This document shows positions 44,294-57,478 of a DNA stretch of 64,000 bases, piece by piece. The stretch lies in NCBI RefSeq assembly GCF_009914755.1, contig NC_060932.1; one strand, given 5' to 3'. The DNA is from the human T2T-CHM13v2.0 reference genome, Homo sapiens. The notes below the pieces were generated by a model. That model saw only the letters and a list, made by a program, of their open reading frames with translations. It ran no database searches and was not told the origin of the DNA. Within the stretch, counting starts at the first letter, position 1; each line of letters begins with the position of its first letter. The position numbers and the translations under genes are program-made.

Positions 44294-44344
44294 CTGAAAT
44301 TTTGGAGAAGTCCTGTAGTGTTTCCTTAGCTCATTTGAATCCAC
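44294..44344 (-). CDS. CNGB3: CNGB3 exon 7 (51 nt)
   Basis: Translates VDSNELRKHYRTSPKFQ; TTTCAG acceptor, GTAGGT donor. Confidence 0.95.
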
Positions 44345-47019
44345 CTGAAAGATATTTGTATTTTCATTAATTTTAGCCAATTTCATCAATTATTTTTTTC
44401 TCACTTTTAAATTTATAACTGTTTCTCTTGGTTGGTTCCTTCCAATCTCAGCCAATAAACATCCTCCATATTCCCAGGTATTAAAACAAAAAATGTTTGG
44501 CTTTAGTTTTCTTCTTACTATTGCCCTATTGTTTGCCACAATCAAGCTTCTCAAGAGAGTTGCCTACCTGCTTTACTCTATATCCTTCCCTCACATTCAT
44601 CCTTAACTCATGGCAATTTGGTGGCAATTTGGCTTCTTCCTGCTTCTCTCATTGCATCAAGGCTAACAGTGCAAAGGTCACCAATGATCTCCTAATGATC
44701 ATGCCCAGGATATCCTTTATGGCACTTAGCATCCTGTTATGGCATTCATCATGATTTGAAATGACACGTATACTGCTTGGCTCATTTACTTAAAATTAGT
44801 CTACTCCATTAAACGGTAATCTATCTGAGGACAGGTTTGATTTTGTTTAGCAACTAAATTTAACTAGTGCCTAGAATATACTAAAAGCCCAATAAATATT
44901 TATTAACTGAATGAATAAAGAAATGGAGAGATGAATAAAACCTCTGAAGCATTAAAAATTTTTTGGACAATTTTTTTCCATGAAACTTTTTCTTTTCAAA
45001 GAATCTGTAATCCCACTCTTAGTTTACTTATATCTTCACTTCCTACTTTTCAGTTTTCTTGGATTCTTGGGCTAGTCATTTAAAAGTCAACATTCCCCAG
45101 GATTTAGCTCTCTTCTCTTTTCTCATCATACTTGCTTCCTGGGAAATCTCACCCACATTTATAGTTTCAGAGATTACCGTGCGGGTTGATGCTACCAAAT
45201 CTCTACTTCCACTAATATCACTTTCTTGAGCTGTTGATGGGTAAGCAACTGCCCATTGTCCTCTTCACTTAGCAGATCCACTGCACCAAACCTGAATTCA
45301 TCATCATTCTTCATTCTCCTTGAGCCAAACTGCTGCTCCTCCTGCTTCCGAGTATCCTATGAGCAATCTCATCTACACTGCTTAGTGGTCCTACACTGCA
45401 CATTCTCCCTCAGCCCTGATACAACCAATAGCCAAGTTCTACTCATTCTTCCTAAAATTTTCTCATGGCCATTCTCTGCTTTCTGGCACTGCTGTCTCTG
45501 CCTTTAGTCTTGTTCCCCTTGATCCATTCTACAGTGGCCGCCAGATGATCTCTAAATCAGATCACTTAAAATCCTCATTTATGTCAAATCCTGCAACTCC
45601 ACATGATTTTAAGGAAAAAAGTGCAAGCACCTTTTCAGGGTATACAAAGCTCTACTTTCTGTTTTCCACTCACTTCCCGGAGCATCCCAGAAACAGAACC
45701 CACTCTGTTCAGCATTTCCTCAAATGCGTCAGAGGGATGCCTTTGCCCATGCTGTCCCAGAGCTCAGAACATGTTTTTCTTTTTTTCTTGTGGAGGAAAA
45801 AGGTGCAGGTAACTCCAACTCATCCATCAAGATTTGGACTAAGGGTCTTCTCTGTCAGATGGTTTTCTCTGAGCCTTATAGCACCCTGGGCATGCCTTTT
45901 CATGACTCACAACATAAAATCCCACCATTTTTCTTTTGTTGGTCTGTCCTAGACATTCTGAGCTATGTAAGACAGTAGGGTCCAATCTTTGTCCTCTATT
46001 TCCTCAGTTCCTAACACAGTGTCTAACACACAGTAGGTGTTCAATAAATGTGTGACGAGTGATAGATGACTAGAGTGGCATTTGTTAATATTCAGACCTA
46101 AAATAATTAATTTGAATATTGGACTTTTATGTTTCACTTATATGTAGTAAAGGATTTTCTAAGGGCTCTTAATTAGTTGACCAAAGCATTATAACTTGGA
46201 CACATGGAAGTAGCGTCTTCTAACAATTATCATTCAGGCTGTCTGGAAGTTTTAAACTGCTGCTTGATCAATGTTAAAGATTGGTTAGTCAACTCCCTAG
46301 TTACTCCCCACACTACTGACTTTTTTGGCTATAATTTTTACTCATATACATGTACTAAATTTTACAGAAATATATTAGAAAATATATGACATGCTCATTT
46401 AATGATTTTTACTGTGAAACAAAATGGCTTACTGAGCCATGGGTAGACATAGATACGGCTTCAAATAAATAGTGTTATAAATCATGTACCACAAGAGTAA
46501 AATCAGTCACTTCCCTCAAAGTTTATATGGGACAGCCAGATAGATATCAAGTGCTAGACAGTTAAGTTAAAATACTACCTCCACCCTGCACTCAGGAAGA
46601 ATGTTCTTAGCATATTTGTCTGTTTACTTTCAAGGTTGTCTATGATTCTATGATTGAATAAATGTAAATGCAACTAAAACTTGCTAGATTAAATGAAATG
46701 TGATTTAGTGATTTTAAAATCTATCTTCTTTAGAGCAGTAAATAAACTTGGCATCATTAGCCTTATGAGGATCAGCATGCTTACCGGTAACAATTAGGTA
46801 CTTATTTTTAAAATGTCACCCCACTTAATTATCTCTCCCTCTTTTAAGCCTCATGATTATACCAGTGACATTTCTTCAGGGGAGGCTTACTTTAGGAAGG
46901 ATATGCTAATTGCACCTAAATCCTTTTCCAATAGATAGCTTTTGAAGAAGATCTACTCAGGTGTTAGTATATTTACTTAGTATTTACCTCTTCTTTCTGC
47001 TCCCACCCCCCCAACCAAA

Positions 47020-50000
47020 ATGGCTAAATCCATTTATTCCAAAAGAAAAAGCAAAATAAACAGAAGTTGCATCACCAGGGCACCATGACCCCATCCTTGC
47101 CTCCTTTCTCTGTCCCGTACTATCAATAAAGAAGTTTCCCAGTCCCAAATAATTACTAGAACCTCCTCCCCATGTACCAGCTTCAACCTCCTCTATGTAT
47201 GATACAGGGGGTGGCCCTACCCTGGAATATACAAAATTTTACACAGATAGAATATGTACACTGGGGAAGGGGAGCCACCCCCAGCAGCCTGTTCTCTTGC
47301 CTGGTCTACATTTAGCCCCATTGTCCTGCCTCAGCTGCCTCTCTGAGTAAGAAGATGGGAGCCCCCGTGAAGGAAAAGTTGCTTAGTGAGTCAGGCCATC
47401 AGGGAGGCCACCAGGCCTCCTGCAAATAAATCAACCCTATGAGCCTCTGGCTCTTAAATAACAACATAATCATCCAGAAATTAAGGACTCAGCCCTGGCC
47501 AAGGTGGCAAAGGGTCTGCACTTGTTTGTCTCCCCCCATCACACAGGGGTCTTACCTTGCTCCTCTAAGGATAATGGGGTGACTGGGAAGGGGTGGTAAG
47601 GACCTGGTGGGGATGGAGCCTCTGGCCCCACTTCTCCAAGCTTTGCTGACAGTGGCCGGCTTTTAGATGATGGTGATCTTCACCTCATTTCTTGTCAGCA
47701 TGATAGAAAAATGGAATGCAGGGGTTGCTGCCCAAGCCTGGGTGCTCCTGGGGGTTCTGCATCTCAGGAAGCAGTTGCATAATCTGCTGTGCAGTGGGAT
47801 TGTCATGGGGAGAACCCTCCCTGGCCTCTTCTTGTGCAGGCTCCACGCTGTGGGCGAGGCTCATCTTGCAAAGATCACCCTGTTTGTTGGCAGCCCCGAG
47901 CTCCTGTGGGAGCTGGGGCACCTGGAGCGGGCTAATCAACAGGGTTCTTGGCAGCTGCCAGGAATTTGCCATGCCACTTGTTGTGGTTGCCCACAAGCCG
48001 CAACACCAGCTCCTGCAGCTCCTGTAGCTCCAGCAGCTCCAGCAGCTTCACCTTCATCTCCTCCTTGTCCTGGGCCAGGCTGCTGATGTATTCCTTCTGG
48101 TGCCACGTCTTCAGCACTGACCTCTAGCTCTGGTACAGTGTGATGTACTTTCCTGCGGGAGGACAGGGTTCAGACGCTGGGACCCCTCTGACCACCGTGC
48201 AGCTCCCCCTGCCATGCCCTGGCCTCCCCCTCACTGATGACGTCTGTCTCTCCAGACAGCTGGATGCAGCGACGTTCCAGTTTTTCCATCTGCTCCTTCA
48301 GGTCCACCTTCTCCTGCATGAGCTCCATAAAGTGGCTCTGCAGCTTCTCCATGGCCCCCTGCAGGGCCCGGTGGGCCTCCCCACACACAGAATCGCCTCC
48401 AGTCCCTGGGACTAGGGCTGCTGCCTCTGGCTCCTTCTGGACTGAGGCCACCAGGTGAGCCAGACACTGACAGCCTGACAGCTCACCCTTTGCTCCTTCA
48501 GCTGCCCACGTGGCCATGCCTGCTCCTCCTCGGCACTGGCCACAGCTGAGTTTAAAAATGCCACCATGGCCTCCCGACTCTCCAGTTCCTCCGGGATGCT
48601 TGGCATGAGCGGAAGCGCCTCCTCCTCACTGTCCAGTCCATCTCCTTCCCCATGGAGAGCCATGAGGGTCAGCTGGGCCTGTGGCTGCTACTTCTGCTGG
48701 CTGGTAGCTTCCAGGTGCTCCTGGGTCTCCTGCAACCCTTGGCAGGCCATCTTGGCCACGACTTTGCCCTGAGCTTCCTCCTGCTGCAGCTGGTCTATGA
48801 GCTGGGTCTGCAGCAGTAACTGCTTGTGGAGCTCCTTCTCATAGGGCACCTGCTGATAGGTGGCCACATACTGCTGCAGGTGACCCAGGTACTGATCTCA
48901 CTACTGCTGTAGACTCTGAGCCTCTTGGCTCTTCAGCTCTACCATCTCCTTCAGCTCACCCAGCTTCTCGCTCGGCTCTTTCTTGATGTGCTGCTCCGAC
49001 TGTGGTGTGCTGGTGATCTCCATGTTCTCATTGTTCAGCTTCATGAAGCCAGTCTGCAACTTGGCCAGCTGCTCTTTGAGCTCACCATTCTGGAAGACTG
49101 CATGACTGATGGTGGTGAGGTCATTCTGCATGGTCTCCAGGGTTTGCCTGTGCACCTCCACCTGCTCCTCCCAGAGCTCAGCCTTCTGCTCTAGCTCCAG
49201 CAGCCTCTCCTCCTGCTCTTGGTTCAGGAGACTCAAGCCCTCATTGTCTTGCGCCTGGGCTTGGAGCTGTCCTGCCAGACCCTCCAGCTCCTTCCGCAGG
49301 TGCTCGGCCTCCACTTATAGCTGCTGCTCCACCTCAGAGGGCCCTGCTGGGGGCTCCAGGAGCAGGGGTTCAGCGATCTGTTCCCTCAGTTTGGCCAAGC
49401 TGGTCTCCAGCTCCTGTACCCGAGTCATGCTGTGCTCCTTCTCCTCCCTTAATGTGTGCACCTGCTCTGACATCGGCTGCATCCTCTGCTACCGCATGGC
49501 CCTCCCTCCTTTCAGATTTTCAGTATATTGGTCTTTCTCCATCTGTAGCTGTTTCAGCAACTCCATAACCTGCCCCAGGTGTGCTTCCAGCTGTGCCTGC
49601 TCCTCCATGGCCTGCTGTAACTGCTGGTTAGCATCAGGGGGTTCACACTGGCTTGAGGACTATTGAAGCAGGAGCTTGGCCTCTCCAGCTTCTTTTGCAG
49701 ATCCTCCAAGTTGAGCTGGATTCCTGACTTCTCTGTCACTAGGACTCAAATTTCTCTTCTAATTCTGAGTTCTGTGGCTTCAGATCCTCATATAACTCCA
49801 GCCTGAGGGCATCTCTCTCCTTGGTTAACTCTTTGTTGTATTTGTGTCTTCTTCTGCTATGTAGAGACAGCAGAGAGAGCCCACTCCAACTCTCCCACAC
49901 GCGCCAGGAATACTGCAGGCAGCTGGCCAGATCCTTTGACTCTCCTTCAAACTGCCTGGCAGCATGCTGAGTGTAATACAGAGCTGTCCATAACTCTGCC

Positions 50001-50803
50001 TTCTCGGACATGAGGATCCCTATGGTCTGAATTTGAACCTGTAACCACTCCCTTTGGCTCCCTGCTTTCAGTTGCTTGCTTTCTTTTCTTCTTCCAGTTG
50101 ATCCAGAATTTCTTGGTTTTGTTGTTTCTCCAGATCCTTCAGGTTAGCAGATGATGCAGGGCCCTCCCCATTGACAAAGGATGTAGACTCAGAGGCAAGA
50201 CAATTGAGCTGTTGAAGAGTTGTCCTGGGCTCTTGATCAATGAGAAAGTCTTGGTTTCATCCATGAGATTGGGACCAATGTCAGCATCATGATTCTGAGG
50301 TGCCGCCATGCTAGTGAGACTGGCACCAGGGGAAGAGACACCACCAGCTAACATGGTGTCATGAGCAGACAGTTGTAGAGGAGAAAGCATGGTCTTTGCA
50401 CATATCCTCAGGTGAATGGCAACCACCAGAAGTGGTTGTCTCAGGATTGCTGCCATTTTTCATTTTCTCCTTTTTTGCTCTTGTACCTACACCAGAGTTG
50501 TTTGTATGCTGATATTCTCTCAATGTTTTCTTGGCCACAGCCAATTTGCTCTGTAGGGTTTCTTCAGACATCACAGGCAGGGTGGGAGGTGGGGTTGGGG
50601 CCATATCAGCACGATCCTGGCAACCACTGCTAAACACATCCAGTCATCTACCGGGCAGATGTGCAACTGATCCAGAGGAGAGTTAACCAGGGCCACACTA
50701 GAACGCAGAATAGGGTGTGGTCTCAATGCTCCAAGCCCATTGGTCAATGAGAAAGATGAAAGGGAAAGGAAGCATGGCCAGGTGGCAGCATGTCCAGAGG
50801 GAC
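47020..50803 (-). pseudogene. GOLGA2P1: GOLGA2 (GM130)-like processed pseudogene, near full length with 5' leader and 3' UTR; probably the locus named GOLGA2P1 (name from memory)
   Basis: Collinear fragments MSEETLQSKL (ATG at 50571), [59 protein letters not shown] and terminal EVKITII* (TAA 47665-47663); many frameshifts and stops; introns removed except one; AATAAA at 47038-47033. Confidence 0.9.
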
Positions 50804-52200
50804 GATTTTTCTCATGCATCTGTACAATGGAATTATAGGATTGTTGGGCTCTTGCTAGATTATATTGATTCTTATTAGCTCCAAACTGCACTCTGGCTTT
50901 GCCTCTGACTAAGATGGCATTTATTTGCATAATGACCAATTCTTTTGTGTAGGCACAGCTACAGCCCTGTTTTGTGAGAAGTTCCATACACAGTGCTCCC
51001 CCATCCAATACATATCCTCCTGAGAGAACAGGTAACACCACTCGAACAAATGGAGGATAAAATGGAAAATTGTCCTGCTACCCTCCAAAGTCTATGAATA
51101 CCAATACTAATAACTTGGCAATTCAGTTTAAGGTCCTCTTCATAAGGCCAGTTAGCTCAAGGCAATAACATTCTTCCCAGGCCTCTTAAGAAATACTCCT
51201 ACCCCAGAAAAGGCCCTTCTTTCTGGTGTTAGGAGCCATGGTCCAGAAACACAAATCCAGTAGCATTTCAGCCATTTACCTCTCAGATCGCCTCCTCCCT
51301 AAAGTTCTACTTTCCTGGGTTTTTTTGTGTTTTGTGTTTGGCCTTGGTTCTTCATTCGTTCCCCCATATGAGTCAGTAAAAATGTAGCCATTAGCAACTT
51401 CAGTTAATATATAACAGATTCATACTTTAGGACGACAACCCAGTTGACAACCACAACAGTTTCTTAAAAGACATGTTAAACAAAATATATTCTATGCTTT
51501 CTTTTTCTTTTTTGATCTGAAGATCATTGTGCAAAAGACTATCAGGGTCGACCTTCTGCAGTTTAACATGCCAGTCATGTACTGTCATTTACGAGTTCCA
51601 CTGAATAAATCCTTTTCAAGCAATATTGCTTTGCTTTTGCCAGAAGATAAAAATCATGTAAGAGTTAATTCTCTATCAGGAAGAGGACAAAAAAATTCCA
51701 GCAGACCTGTTTTATGTTTTATAACTCCATGATCTGCATACGTCCCTGAGCTCTTTCATAAGTCTATCTGAAACTTGCACTGACCCAAACACCACATCAC
51801 ATTTAAATGGCCTTGACTTTGAGTCTTCCTAATTTTCTCTAATGTTGCCAAATTTTCTTTTTCAATTCCTTCATCCTCCAACTTTTTCCCACTAATAAGT
51901 TCTTCTTTCTTCATCTTACAGTGATTTAAGTATTTTATATCTCCAGCCATCTCTTCTTCCTCTTCTTCTGAAGTCACTTCTATTTTCCCATTCTGACCCA
52001 TGGGTAGTGGTTGATCTAGCATCTCAAACATCCAGGTGCTTAGGAAGGTTATATAATCTGCAGAGTTCACATATCAACCACTTCAATTGCTGACGAAGGT
52101 AATTGTTGTTCTCAGTATCTTCTGGACGTTCCAGAACTGATGTCAGATTTGGGTCATCACAGTCCACAAACCATATTGGTGAAAAAGATGGATAGGATTC
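50804..52200 (-). pseudogene. UBE2Q2-like (ubiquitin-conjugating E2) processed pseudogene segment lacking the first and last coding parts
   Basis: Collinear fragments [74 protein letters not shown] (catalytic Cys motif) and [17 protein letters not shown]; frameshifted. Confidence 0.9.
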
Positions 52201-52860
52201 TTGGAATCTCTAGGCACGAGAAGAGGCTCAACCCATCATGGAACAGTCCTGGCCTCCGTGGTGTCTTGTCCACAGGAGATTCGGCAATGTGTAAATATTC
52301 AGGAGACTGGCCCAGGTGCAGGGCTGCGAGGGTGCGCTGCTGTCCCCGTGCCGCCGCCGCCAACTCAGTCCGCAAAGCTGAGCATGGGGCGCCACTGCAG
52401 CTCTTTGTGAGCCTGCGCCAAGCCGCACACCGCAACCCGTATTCACTCCTTCTGATAAACAATTCACAGAAACTTCATAATTTTACACAGGACAGATGGA
52501 AGAAGTATTTTAAAATAATATTACCTGAAACAATTATAATGCAGATTAAATAATTATTCAAAGAAATAAAATCCTCGAACTGAGATTATCATTCATTCAC
52601 TCCTTCAAACATTTCTTGAGTATACTCTAAGTTCCTAGGGTAGATAAATAAGTGAATCGAATACTGTCCCTACTCTCAAGAAACTTATCCTCAGGTAAGA
52701 AAGAGAGATACATAGACAAATAGGAGACAAGAGGGAAAAGTGAAGTGTGTGGACAACCATTCATTTAATTCATTTGACAATCAATTGTGTATTTTCTATA
52801 TGCCAGACCCTGAGCTAGGTGTCTTATTCAATCTTCATAATAGGTTTATGAGGTGGGTAC

Positions 52861-53192: not shown

Positions 53193-55424
53193 GTACGACT
53201 ATTCCCATTTTGGGGGATGAAAAAGATTGTATTCAATAAAAGGGTAAGTTTAGTTTCTTCAAGTTAATGCTATTAGCAAATTTCAGAAGTGAAATTTGAC
53301 CCCAGACTGTTGGTTTCTACTACTTCATAATTAGCCTAATCGATATTTAACACAATTAAATAACAGAATTATGAGTAAAGTGTAGGAAACACAGAGAAGG
53401 GAGTGGTTTTCTTCAGATTGGTTTATAAAGAGCAATTGAGAGGATTAAGTACCAAAAGCAGTTGATTATAAAGGAAGGCCTAATTGACATTGTAACTAGA
53501 TGACACTGAGGATTTCTGTGAATTTTGTGATTGGTAGGTTTAGCAAAGGGCTGTGCATGTGAGTGTCTCTTATCTAAATAATCTTCACTGTCATTTCCAA
53601 CTCAATTTCTGCTATCTATAAAGGAAATTACATACAAGAGACTTTTTGTTTGACTGCGTTTCAAAATTCTGTTATCTTTGTAGCACCACTTTTAGGAGCA
53701 AGATTTTATAAATAAATGCTGTGAAAAACTTGTAAGGCCTCCTGGTTTCTATTGTAGCTGTTAGCACCTCAATCTGTTGTCTGTTACTTGCTTATTTTCC
53801 TTCAAGGCCTTGGGGAATTCATATTTCCATCCTCCAGTTATGGTGCATTTATTTAATAAATTAAGTAGATGTATCTACCTAGCAACTGTAAGTATTTAAT
53901 AAATGTCTCTTGAATGAATGATTCAGTGGTGTTACCAATGGTAGCATGGATAGCTAAATATGAGACCTTCAGGTTGGGTACTCAATGTGCATAGTCTTCT
54001 TACCAAAATGTCATCAAGTTTCAAAGGCTGCAGCTACTTACTCTAAATTAAAGAAACCATTAAACTTCTTTTGAACAAACAAAGCAATTATTTCCTGCTC
54101 TATATTTGTAGCTTATGATAATGCATTTTAAATAGAGCCTGTTGAGTGTGTTTTTTACCGGTTATTTTTCTTGGTTTTAACACTTCATTGTGTGCAAAAG
54201 CCTCTTAGAAAATTGAAAATAAAAGTCTCCCTTTACTGATTTTGTCATTTTCCATTTGTCAAACATTGATTTTCTCCCCCCTTGTGAGTCTAATGGAGGT
54301 TGAAATTAGTGTTCCTTTTGTTGTTGTTTACTTCTTATTTGTACACCGTCATCACCATTCATCAAGCTGCCAGGTTGCTCTGGGGATGGTGCTGGTGATT
54401 TAACTAATGCTCTAAAGTCTGCACAAGGAATTTTTTGAATAGACTTTTGGCATAGCTTTGGCTTTTGCCTTTAGTATTTCTTTCTAGGAAAGATTTCAAA
54501 TATAGAAAACACTTCCCAGAAAATGACAATTATTTTAAGGAAGAAAAAAATATTCAAAGCTATTCCTTTCAGCTTTTTGATAATTTAAGACCTTCTGAAG
54601 ATTCAACAGAAAATATTAAGGAGATTAAGCGACCTAACTGTCTTCTTCAAAATTCTACATGGACCTAAGATGCCATATAGGCAGTCAGTCTGCTCTTCCT
54701 ATTGTGATATTGGAGGACATGTTCTGTGCAGCCCTTGCTGAGCCTTGGGAGGAGGATGGCACACTGGCCACAGTTGGAAAGGTAGCTTCCTTCTAGTTAG
54801 CTGGGGAAGGGGCTTGGGGTAGTGGTTATAAGACTTGGGTTTGTGCTTGTGAAAACACATTTTTCTGTTTCTTAGATTGATTGGATTGACAATAAACTTC
54901 CCTCAACACTGAGAATAAATCCAGGAGAAGATAATTTCTCCTAAGGGTAAGAATGCTAATTTCTTAGGAAGGGCACTGCATTTGATCATGAGAAATAGGA
55001 TGTGATGAATTTGGCAAGTAAAGAATAAAAAGATAGACCTGTAGATGCCATATTCATTAAAAAACAAAACACCAGTGGAGGTGTTCTACGTACTTGTGAT
55101 TTGCCCATATCTGTGAGGGGTGTGGCTACCTCTCTGTGGTTTGGCTGTATTGATGGAGATATGGATGGCTCATTGCTCTTTCATTCTCTTACCACACTGA
55201 ATAATAGTATATTTTGCAATGGTGGAAATCTTCTGTGCTGTCCACCAGACACATGGTTGTTGAGTTCTGAAAATATGAACAATGTGGCTGAGAAACCTGA
55301 ATGTTTAATGGTATTTAATTGTAACTAATTCAAATTTAAATTTGAATGGACATATTTGCCTAGCGGTCACCATATTGGACAGTGCGGTGAATCTATATTG
55401 ATTAAAATGGTCATGACCATATAA

Positions 55425-57166: not shown

Positions 57167-57478
<312 letters not shown>

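What the first reader, a model, noticed from the sequence alone, without database searches (positions are those of the whole stretch)
47020..52451. Single retrocopy of a three-part chimeric mRNA: unknown first exon + UBE2Q2 + GOLGA2-like
On the minus strand a GC-rich leader (52451-52201) joins UBE2Q2 at ESYP, which I recall as the start of exon 2. UBE2Q2 then runs spliced to HEKN, losing only its short terminal part (GWYTPPKEDG), and joins golgin 5' sequence directly at 50804/50803. There is no poly-A, TSD or spacer between the parts. This points to one reverse-transcribed read-through transcript, not two adjacent pseudogenes. UBE2Q2 pseudogenes and GOLGA copies are known neighbours in the chromosome 15q24-25 duplicons. 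The golgin part is full-length and GM130-like, so it may be a snapshot of an ancestral duplicon transcript (inference).
Basis: partly seen in the sequence, partly recalled or inferred. Interest (0 to 1): 0.8.

Follow-up and report, generated by a model that had tools for sequence, protein, structure and literature searches.

The report
Three-gene chimeric retrocopy in CNGB3 intron
A dead, intron-less copy of one spliced RNA that joined pieces of three chromosome-15 genes (probably APBA2, then UBE2Q2, then a GOLGA2-like golgin) sits in a CNGB3 intron and preserves a transcript of an early form of the chromosome-15 golgin duplication unit.

Summary
On the minus strand, window 52436-47020 is one processed copy of a spliced RNA.

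- **Leader (52436-52201).** It is two exons, not one. They match C15:26663172-283 and C15:26699152-261, 36 kb apart, upstream of APBA2 coding exons on the same strand.
- **UBE2Q2 part (52200-50804).** It holds eleven canonical exons plus three cassette exons. All 13 junctions fall on GT..AG sites of the parent gene, and the terminal exon is absent.
- **Golgin part (50803-47020).** It enters at an AG acceptor conserved in chr9 GOLGA2 and in every chr15 golgin copy examined. It is full length with one retained 82-nt intron and ends 12 nt after AATAAA.

No poly(A), repeat or spacer lies at the inner joints. Changes specific to the chr8 copy are equal across parts (5.6%, 5.6%, 6.6%; Fisher p = 0.33).

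A locus at C15:60.07-60.09 Mb still has UBE2Q2 exon 12 lying 11.3 kb upstream of the same golgin acceptor. The source was therefore an early UBE2Q2-golgin duplicon.

The copy is a pseudogene. No terminal poly(A) remains, and the target-site duplication is only 12 of 15. Primate dating could not be done.

The parts
52439..52453 (-). candidate 5' target-site duplication (AGAAGGAGTGAATAC), followed by two extra G (52438-52437) before the copy starts
   Evidence: 12 of 15 match to 46994-46980; 43 of 2000 shuffles reach it (14 of 2000 when the 5' copy must abut the element)
52307..52436 (-). leader exon A, homologous to C15:26663172-26663283 (CpG-rich first exon upstream of APBA2)
   Evidence: homology starts at 52436; the source has a GT donor right after the match; 20 of 109 aligned sites differ, 9 of them CpG to TpG/CpA in chr8
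52201..52306 (-). leader exon B, homologous to C15:26699152-26699261, 36 kb downstream of exon A in the source
   Evidence: the source is flanked by ...tttaCAG| and |GTGAGT; 15 of 102 aligned sites differ
50804..52200 (-). UBE2Q2 part: eleven canonical exons (nominal exons 2-12) plus three cassette exons; the terminal coding exon is absent; broken by stops and frameshifts
51612..51706 (-). cassette exon x6a, from UBE2Q2 intron sequence C15:~73747255-73747349, with AG/GT flanks in the parent
51311..51464 (-). cassette exon x8a, from UBE2Q2 intron sequence starting at C15:73751783, with AG/GT flanks
51077..51310 (-). cassette exon x8b, from C15:73752161-73752396, with AG/GT flanks
47020..50803 (-). 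full-length GOLGA2-like (GM130-like) mRNA copy. It starts at a conserved AG acceptor about 197 nt upstream of the ATG and ends at the GOLGA2 cleavage site. It holds many stops.
48153..48234 (-). retained 82-nt GT..AG intron, homologous to a GOLGA2 intron on chr9
47033..47038 (-). AATAAA polyadenylation signal; homology to chr9 ends 12 nt later, at 47020
46995..47019 (-). 25 nt of G/T-rich sequence where a poly(A) tail is expected (unexplained)
46980..46994 (-). candidate 3' target-site duplication (AGAAGAGGTAAATAC)

Best explanation
Window 52436-47020 (minus strand) is a single retrocopy of one spliced, polyadenylated chimeric RNA. It is presumably LINE-1-mediated and is now a dead pseudogene in a CNGB3 intron, in the same orientation as CNGB3.

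**The source RNA**
- It began at the first exon of a gene upstream of the APBA2 coding exons, most likely APBA2's non-coding exons 1-2.
- It spliced into UBE2Q2 exon 2 and ran through exon 12, including three non-canonical cassette exons.
- From the exon-12 donor it spliced into an AG acceptor about 197 nt upstream of the start codon of a GOLGA2-derived golgin gene.
- It then ran, fully spliced apart from one small intron, to that gene's poly(A) site.

**The source locus**
- The UBE2Q2-to-golgin joint requires a locus where a UBE2Q2 copy lies upstream of a golgin copy on the same strand.
- That architecture is the chromosome-15 duplicon (LCR15 / GOLGA core duplicon neighbourhood), in an early and still intact state.
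- The retrocopy is about as old as the duplications that made that locus. From rates I recall, this is roughly 35-50 million years.

**Shown:** intron loss, splice-site joints, equal divergence of the parts, and the existence of the UBE2Q2-golgin architecture.

**Inferred:** LINE-1 mediation, the APBA2 name for the leader exons, how the leader came to lie in cis, and the age.
For: **1. Intron loss.**
- 13 of 13 UBE2Q2 joints fall on GT..AG sites of C15:73725151-73767809. Ten were found by script and three were read by eye where indels defeated the script.
- 18 of 24 golgin joints fall on GT..AG sites of chr9 GOLGA2 by the same script. The other 6 were not resolved by the script and not read by eye.

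**2. Leader.** It is two blocks in order and on one strand, 36 kb apart in the source, joined at ...CCAG|gtaag and ...ttaCAG|. Its end sits at a GTGAGT donor.

**3. APBA2 link.** PID-domain exons lie at C15:26870633-26882959 on the same strand. One of them is named APBA2 by PDB entries 3sv1/3suz (E 5.5e-38, against 1.8e-28 for X11/APBA1).

**4. Golgin acceptor.** ccacAG|GTCCCTCTGG is present in chr9 GOLGA2, in the C15:60.07 Mb copy and in 7 of 7 other chr15 golgin loci. The UBE2Q2 side ends at ...GAGAAAAATG|gtatgt.

**5. Source architecture survives.**
- C15:60086299-60086229 (exon 12) lies 11.3 kb upstream of the golgin acceptor at 60074916, on the same strand.
- The 80.25-80.30 Mb and 82.27-82.31 Mb copies have the same layout but lack exon 12 through a 7.3-kb deletion.
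- The sequence just upstream of the golgin is shared: a spacer collinear over about 6.6 kb between the 60.07 Mb and 80.29 Mb copies, and at least 1.5 kb of it in 7 of 7 other golgin loci examined.
- Homology to chr9 starts only about 70-80 bp before the acceptor.

**6. One age.**
- chr8-specific changes are 40 of 716 (UBE2Q2 coding), 27 of 478 (cassette exons) and 100 of 1523 (golgin; 85 non-CpG).
- Fisher p = 0.33, or 1.0 for non-CpG changes.
- The leader differs from its source at 23 of 211 non-CpG-type sites. This is close to the 48 of 478 between chr8 and the parent in the cassette exons.

**7. Single copy.** The processed joint occurs only once in the genome.

**8. 3' end.** The copy ends at the GOLGA2 cleavage site, 12 nt after AATAAA.
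Against: - **No poly(A) tail.** 25 nt of G/T-rich sequence follow the cleavage site.
- **Weak target-site duplication.** It matches at only 12 of 15 positions, and 43 of 2000 shuffles do as well.
- **Leader not in cis today.** No place in this genome has the leader exons next to a UBE2Q2 copy. The leader search gave 3 candidates: itself and the two APBA2-upstream exons. APBA2 and UBE2Q2 are 47 Mb apart today.
- **No source copy closer than the parents.** In pairwise identity the chr8 UBE2Q2 part is nearer the parent gene (about 92%) than any duplicon copy (84-92%). The three-branch counts show an unresolved trichotomy, not a nesting inside the duplicon clade.
- **Tree placement unresolved.** The 3'-exon tree leaves the chr8 position among chr9, chr12 and the 60.05 Mb copy unresolved.
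- **APBA2 exon identity rests on recall.** That the leader exons are APBA2 exons 1-2 rests on position, strand and my recalled gene span, not on an annotation I could see.
Confidence: 0.85

Rival explanations
1. The three RNAs were separate, and were joined by trans-splicing or by reverse-transcriptase template switching during one LINE-1 insertion. No genomic locus ever held them in cis.
For: No locus in this genome holds the APBA2-upstream exons next to a UBE2Q2 copy. The golgin part starts just downstream of a GC-box-like GGGCGG in what looks like the GOLGA2 promoter, so 50803 might lie near a cap site.
Against: - Both sides of both joints sit on canonical donor and acceptor sites. Template switching has no reason to stop at the last base of an exon.
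- A cis layout with UBE2Q2 exon 12 upstream of the same golgin acceptor exists at C15:60.07-60.09 Mb.
- Trans-splicing remains possible for the leader joint only.
Confidence: 0.08
2. Two or three independent processed pseudogenes inserted next to or into each other. This is how the annotation treats them (UBE2Q2P10 and GOLGA2P1).
For: The hub's annotation gives two separate pseudogene names. Pairwise identity to the parents differs: about 92% for UBE2Q2, about 86% for GOLGA2 and 72-81% for the leader.
Against: - No poly(A), target-site duplication or spacer lies at 52201/52200 or 50804/50803.
- The UBE2Q2 piece would lack its own 3' end, and would end exactly at an exon's last base.
- chr8-specific divergence is equal across the parts.
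- The unequal pairwise identities are explained by faster change on the GOLGA2 side and by CpG decay of the leader.
Confidence: 0.02
3. The chimeric copy was made elsewhere, or is a DNA-level piece of a chromosome-15 duplicon, and reached chr8 by segmental duplication.
For: Golgin and UBE2Q2 copies have spread by segmental duplication to chr7, chr10, chr12 and Y.
Against: - The chr8 copy lacks all introns but one. Homology stops at the first base of the leader exon and at the cleavage site.
- The duplicon spacer and the DNM1-side flank that accompany DNA-level copies are absent.
- No second copy of the processed joint exists in the genome.
Confidence: 0.03

Closest known systems
PIPSL (co-retroposed PIP5K1A-PSMD4 read-through transcript, hominoids)
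   Same: One retrocopy made from a single RNA that joined exons of neighbouring genes by intergenic splicing. The abstract of PMC2773790, seen, calls this 'co-retroposition' and says it had not been reported before PIPSL.
   Different: - Here three source genes contribute, not two.
- The source locus was itself a product of segmental duplication and no longer exists intact.
- The copy includes non-canonical cassette exons and a retained intron.
- It is much older by divergence.
- It is a dead pseudogene, whereas PIPSL is argued to code.
Chromosome-15 LCR15 / GOLGA core duplicon units (ITSN2/DNM1-GOLGA2 units; GOLGA2P, GOLGA6, GOLGA8 copies with neighbouring UBE2Q2P copies)
   Same: The golgin part shares the family's acceptor site. 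It branches at the base of the family in the 3'-exon tree. The UBE2Q2-then-golgin order is that of the duplicons. Passages of PMC3814877 seen place the first chimeric unit in the Haplorhini ancestor, which fits the divergence found here.
   Different: The chr8 element is RNA-derived (no introns, no spacer, no DNM1 flank), is on chromosome 8 and is single copy. UBE2Q2 occurs 0 times in the main texts of PMC3814877 and PMC6436712.
Ordinary processed pseudogenes of GOLGA2 or UBE2Q2
   Same: Intron loss, a 3' end at the poly(A) site, and decay by stops and frameshifts.
   Different: One insertion carries three genes' exons. The UBE2Q2 part has neither its own first exon nor its own 3' end.
Template-switch chimeric retrocopies (for example U6-mRNA chimeras; recalled, not read here)
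   Same: Two or more RNAs end up in one insertion.
   Different: Those joints are not at splice sites. Here all the joints are.

Membership tests
Processed pseudogene / LINE-1-mediated retrocopy | Introns of the parent genes are removed at their GT..AG borders | tested here: met
   UBE2Q2: 13 of 13 joints (10 by script, 3 by eye). GOLGA2: 18 of 24 by script, 6 unresolved. One 82-nt intron is retained.
Processed pseudogene / LINE-1-mediated retrocopy | The 3' end lies at the parent's cleavage site after AATAAA | tested here: met
   Homology to chr9 and to a chr15 copy ends 12 nt after AATAAA, at 47020.
Processed pseudogene / LINE-1-mediated retrocopy | Poly(A) tail | tested here: not met
   25 nt of G/T-rich sequence follow the cleavage site, with no A-run. 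It may have been lost with age.
Processed pseudogene / LINE-1-mediated retrocopy | Target-site duplication flanking the whole insertion | tested here: inconclusive
   A 15-mer matches at 12 of 15 positions. 43 of 2000 shuffles reach this, or 14 of 2000 under the stricter placement.
Co-retroposed chimeric transcript (PIPSL kind) | Exons of different genes are joined at a donor of one and an acceptor of the other | tested here: met
   Leader exon B donor GTGAGT to the UBE2Q2 exon-2 acceptor. Exon-12 donor to the golgin acceptor ccacAG|.
Co-retroposed chimeric transcript (PIPSL kind) | One set of insertion marks only: no poly(A) or duplication at the inner joints | tested here: met
   Read directly from the sequence at 52201/52200 and 50804/50803.
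Co-retroposed chimeric transcript (PIPSL kind) | The source genes are neighbours on one strand | tested here: inconclusive
   Met for UBE2Q2 copy then golgin: 3 of 3 duplicons examined, and exon 12 is kept in 1 of 3. Not met in this genome for the leader exons, which exist only upstream of APBA2.
Co-retroposed chimeric transcript (PIPSL kind) | All parts have the same age at the insertion site | tested here: met
   chr8-specific changes are 67 of 1194 against 100 of 1523, Fisher p = 0.33. For non-CpG changes they are 66 of 1194 against 85 of 1523, p = 1.0.
DNA-level copy of the chromosome-15 golgin duplicon | Keeps the introns and the shared upstream spacer and downstream flank | tested here: not met
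   Introns are absent. UBE2Q2 exon 12 abuts the acceptor directly, where the duplicons have 10-11 kb of spacer. Homology ends at the cleavage site.
Template-switch chimeric retrocopy | Joints at arbitrary positions or at RNA ends, not at splice sites | tested here: not met
   Both inner joints lie on splice sites. Whether 50803 is also a cap site could not be tested.

The most novel reading that the evidence does not exclude
The retrocopy is a fossil of the founding transcript of the chromosome-15 golgin family. The GOLGA2 segment that seeded the family arrived with almost none of its own promoter, since homology to chr9 starts about 70-80 bp before the acceptor. On this reading it was first expressed only as the 3' part of a fusion gene. 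That gene was driven by the APBA2 promoter and read through a partial UBE2Q2 copy in an early anthropoid. The core-duplicon family would therefore have begun as a three-gene fusion transcript, and this copy would date that stage.
Probability: 0.3. Interest if true: 0.7.

Novelty: new member of a known kind. Interest (0 to 1): 0.5.

Why it matters
Retrocopies of intergenically spliced RNAs are rare. PIPSL was described as the first two-gene case (abstract of PMC2773790). This one joins three genes.

Its larger value is as a dated record. It shows that a UBE2Q2 copy and a GOLGA2-derived gene were already one transcription unit at about the time both were duplicated. It also shows that this unit was intact: exons 2-12 were all present and the golgin was full length. 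Transcription appears to have started from exons now found only upstream of APBA2.

The history of the chromosome-15 golgin duplicons underlies the 15q13, 15q24 and 15q25 rearrangement disorders. One review says their duplication architecture is 'not yet well resolved' (passage of PMC6920530). An outside fossil gives a fixed reference point for that history.

For annotation, UBE2Q2P10 and GOLGA2P1 are one insertion. The gaps in the UBE2Q2P10 model at 51077-51464 and 51612-51706 are cassette exons, not introns.

I found no paper that names either pseudogene (0 papers). In the listings I recognised none that links UBE2Q2 to the golgin duplicon's origin. UBE2Q2 does not occur in the main texts searched. 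Supplements were not seen.

Tried and rejected
- **Pfam on the leader frames and most UBE2Q2 frames.** No families were found. UQ_con reached only E 0.0083, below its cut-off. I relied on DNA mapping and PDB instead.
- **'chr8 derives from today's parent UBE2Q2'.** I first read the higher pairwise identity to the parent that way. The three-branch counts showed a near-equal trichotomy, with the parent's coding exons simply slow (8-10 changes of 716 sites). I dropped that reading.
- **UBE2Q2 exon 1.** I tried to locate it with a short recalled motif in the 20 kb at and upstream of exon 2 (C15:73715001-73735000) and found nothing. The exon numbers used here are therefore nominal.
- **A DNA-level APBA2/UBE2Q2 junction.** I tried to follow the duplicons' UBE2Q2 homology upstream of exon 2.
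  - The homology runs at least 7.7 kb into intron 1, and in one copy almost to the start of my 10-kb query, so the border was not reached.
  - No more sequence could be fetched.
- **Origin of the spacer upstream of the chr15 golgins.**
  - It is not from chr9 or UBE2Q2.
  - It has a full-length relative at C2:71229225-71232454.
  - I listed its frames for a Pfam scan but did not run the scan.
  - I could not link it to the ITSN2 module named in PMC3814877.
- **Golgin junctions.** The splice-site script failed on 6 of 24 golgin joints and I did not read them by eye.
- **Rooting.** No outgroup sequence was available, so neither tree can be rooted independently.

Full report
**What is there**

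- Pfam finds GOLGA2L5 (E 1.7e-50 and 9.2e-31) and GM130_C (E 1.9e-28). UQ_con reaches only E 0.0083, below its cut-off.
- The frame 51077-50805 best matches PDB 1zuo_A (E 1.5e-46). I recall that entry as UBE2Q2. UBE2Q1 is next.

**UBE2Q2 part (52200-50804)**

It maps block by block to C15:73725151-73767809, which I take to be the parent UBE2Q2 gene, at 81.5-97% identity (the low-complexity exon 4 at 81.5%, the other blocks at 87-97%).
- Eleven blocks are the canonical coding exons.
- Three further blocks (51706-51612, 51464-51311, 51310-51077) map inside UBE2Q2 introns. Each is flanked there by AG and GT, so they are cassette exons.
- All 13 joints fall on GT..AG sites: 10 found by script and 3 read by eye.
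- The terminal coding exon exists in the parent at C15:73770176 and is absent from chr8.
- The UBE2Q2 part stops at the last base of exon 12. The parent reads ...GAGAAAAATG|gtatgt and chr8 has C at that last base.

**Leader (52436-52201)**

It has only two relatives in the whole genome (3 candidates including itself).
- C15:26663172-283 matches 52436-52307.
- C15:26699152-261 matches 52306-52204.
- The two blocks are in order on one strand, 36 kb apart.
- The first block is followed in the source by gtaag. The second lies between ...ttaCAG| and |GTGAGT.
- Identity is low (72% and 81%). Twelve of the 35 differences are CpG-to-TpG/CpA changes in chr8, and the remainder is 23 of 211 sites.
- PID-domain exons lie 171-184 kb downstream on the same strand. 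One of them is named APBA2 by PDB 3sv1/3suz.
- From position, strand and my recalled APBA2 span of about 234 kb, I infer that these are APBA2's non-coding exons 1-2. No annotation confirmed this.

**Golgin part (50803-47020)**

It maps to chr9 GOLGA2 (C9:140483283-140462944) through all its exons.
- 18 of 24 joints fall on GT..AG sites by script. The other 6 were left unresolved.
- One 82-nt intron is retained.
- Homology ends 12 nt after AATAAA.
- The part starts at gtccctctgg. In chr9, in the C15:60.07 Mb copy and in 7 of 7 other chr15 golgin loci, this is preceded by ...ccacag, a splice acceptor.

**One event or several**
- No A-run, duplication or spacer lies at either inner joint.
- I counted changes specific to the chr8 copy, meaning sites where two relatives agree against it. 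They are 40 of 716 in UBE2Q2 coding exons, 27 of 478 in cassette exons and 100 of 1523 in the golgin (85 without CpG-type changes).
- The parts do not differ: Fisher p = 0.33, or 1.0 for non-CpG changes.
- The processed joint is unique in the genome.
- The outer marks are weak. There is no poly(A), and the 15-mer duplication matches at 12 of 15 positions (43 of 2000 shuffles reach this, or 14 of 2000 under stricter placement).
- Two extra G lie between the candidate duplication and the first leader base. This could reflect copying of the cap (inference from recalled knowledge).

**Source locus**
- In three chr15 duplicons a UBE2Q2 copy lies upstream of a golgin copy on one strand.
- Exon 12 with its flanks has just one other genomic copy, at C15:60086299-60086229. 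It lies 11.3 kb upstream of the golgin acceptor at 60074916.
- The 80.3 Mb and 82.3 Mb copies share the spacer but lack a 7.3-kb piece that holds exon 12.
- The spacer just upstream of the golgin is shared: collinear over about 6.6 kb between the 60.07 Mb and 80.29 Mb copies, with at least 1.5 kb of it in 7 of 7 other golgin loci examined. Homology to chr9 begins only 70-80 bp before the acceptor.
- The copies therefore descend from one UBE2Q2-spacer-GOLGA2 junction.
- The three-branch counts give near-equal branches for the cassette exons: chr8 27, parent 21 and duplicon 36, of 478 sites. The retrocopy is thus about as old as the duplication.
- In a 21-row tree of the 3' exon, chr8 sits with chr9, chr12 and the 60.05 Mb copy outside a 97/93-supported clade of the other 17. 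Its exact place within that group is unresolved.

**Age**

A chr8-specific divergence of about 5.6% suggests roughly 35-50 million years, using primate rates I recall. No tool gave this figure. Passages of PMC3814877 place the first chimeric golgin unit in the Haplorhini ancestor, which agrees.

**Open points**
- How the leader came to lie in cis.
- The missing poly(A) tail.
- Presence or absence in other primates.
- Rooting of the trees.
- The upstream border of the duplicons' UBE2Q2 homology was not reached. Further sequence could not be fetched.

**Literature**
- No paper names GOLGA2P1 or UBE2Q2P10.
- Searches gave no title or abstract start, among those listed, that describes this element.
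- UBE2Q2 has 0 occurrences in the main texts of PMC3814877 and PMC6436712.
- I saw passages only of PMC3814877, PMC6436712 and PMC6920530, the abstract and outline of PMC2773790, and no supplements.

Noticed in passing
window 51612-51706, 51311-51464, 51077-51310: Three stretches inside UBE2Q2 introns behave as cassette exons with intact AG/GT flanks in today's parent gene (C15:~73747255-349, 73751783-~938, 73752161-396). They would break the reading frame, so they may be non-productive alternative exons of UBE2Q2 or of its transcribed copies.
   Followed up: partly
L024 region, C9:140463444-140464400 (chr9 GOLGA2 3' end): The chr9 gene holds three copies of the segment that encodes the last residues and the start of the 3' UTR. 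The chr8 copy has this segment only once. Either chr9 duplicated it later or splicing skips the extra copies.
   Followed up: no
L035:1663-4551 (C15:60077663-60080551) and relatives: The spacer that precedes the chr15 golgin copies has near full-length relatives at C2:71229225-71232454 and C7:30666753-30669627, and a partial one at C5:175463250-987. Its origin is unclear, and I could not tie it to the ITSN2 module of the literature.
   Followed up: partly
C15:80287281 and C15:82276133 (L021, L028): The 80.3 Mb and 82.3 Mb duplicons jump from UBE2Q2 intron 11 straight into the spacer. Relative to the 60.08 Mb copy they lack 7.3 kb, including exon 12. The 60.09 Mb copy in turn lacks exons 9-11 and everything upstream of cassette exon x8b.
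   Followed up: yes
window 47020-52436 relative to CNGB3 exons 44294-44344 and 57206-57414: The retrocopy lies in a CNGB3 intron in the same orientation as CNGB3 and carries an AATAAA. The hub table lists a RefSeq 'silencer' at 47916-48087, inside the golgin part. Neither was examined.
   Followed up: no
window 55094-55108: The RefSeq UBE2Q2P10 model adds a 15-nt exon 2.9 kb beyond the 5' end of the retrocopy as defined here. I did not test it. It lies outside the homology found.
   Followed up: no
window 51706-51715: A 7-nt tandem repeat (ATAAAAC twice) sits at the joint of exon 6 and cassette exon x6a. It is probably a slip after insertion.
   Followed up: no
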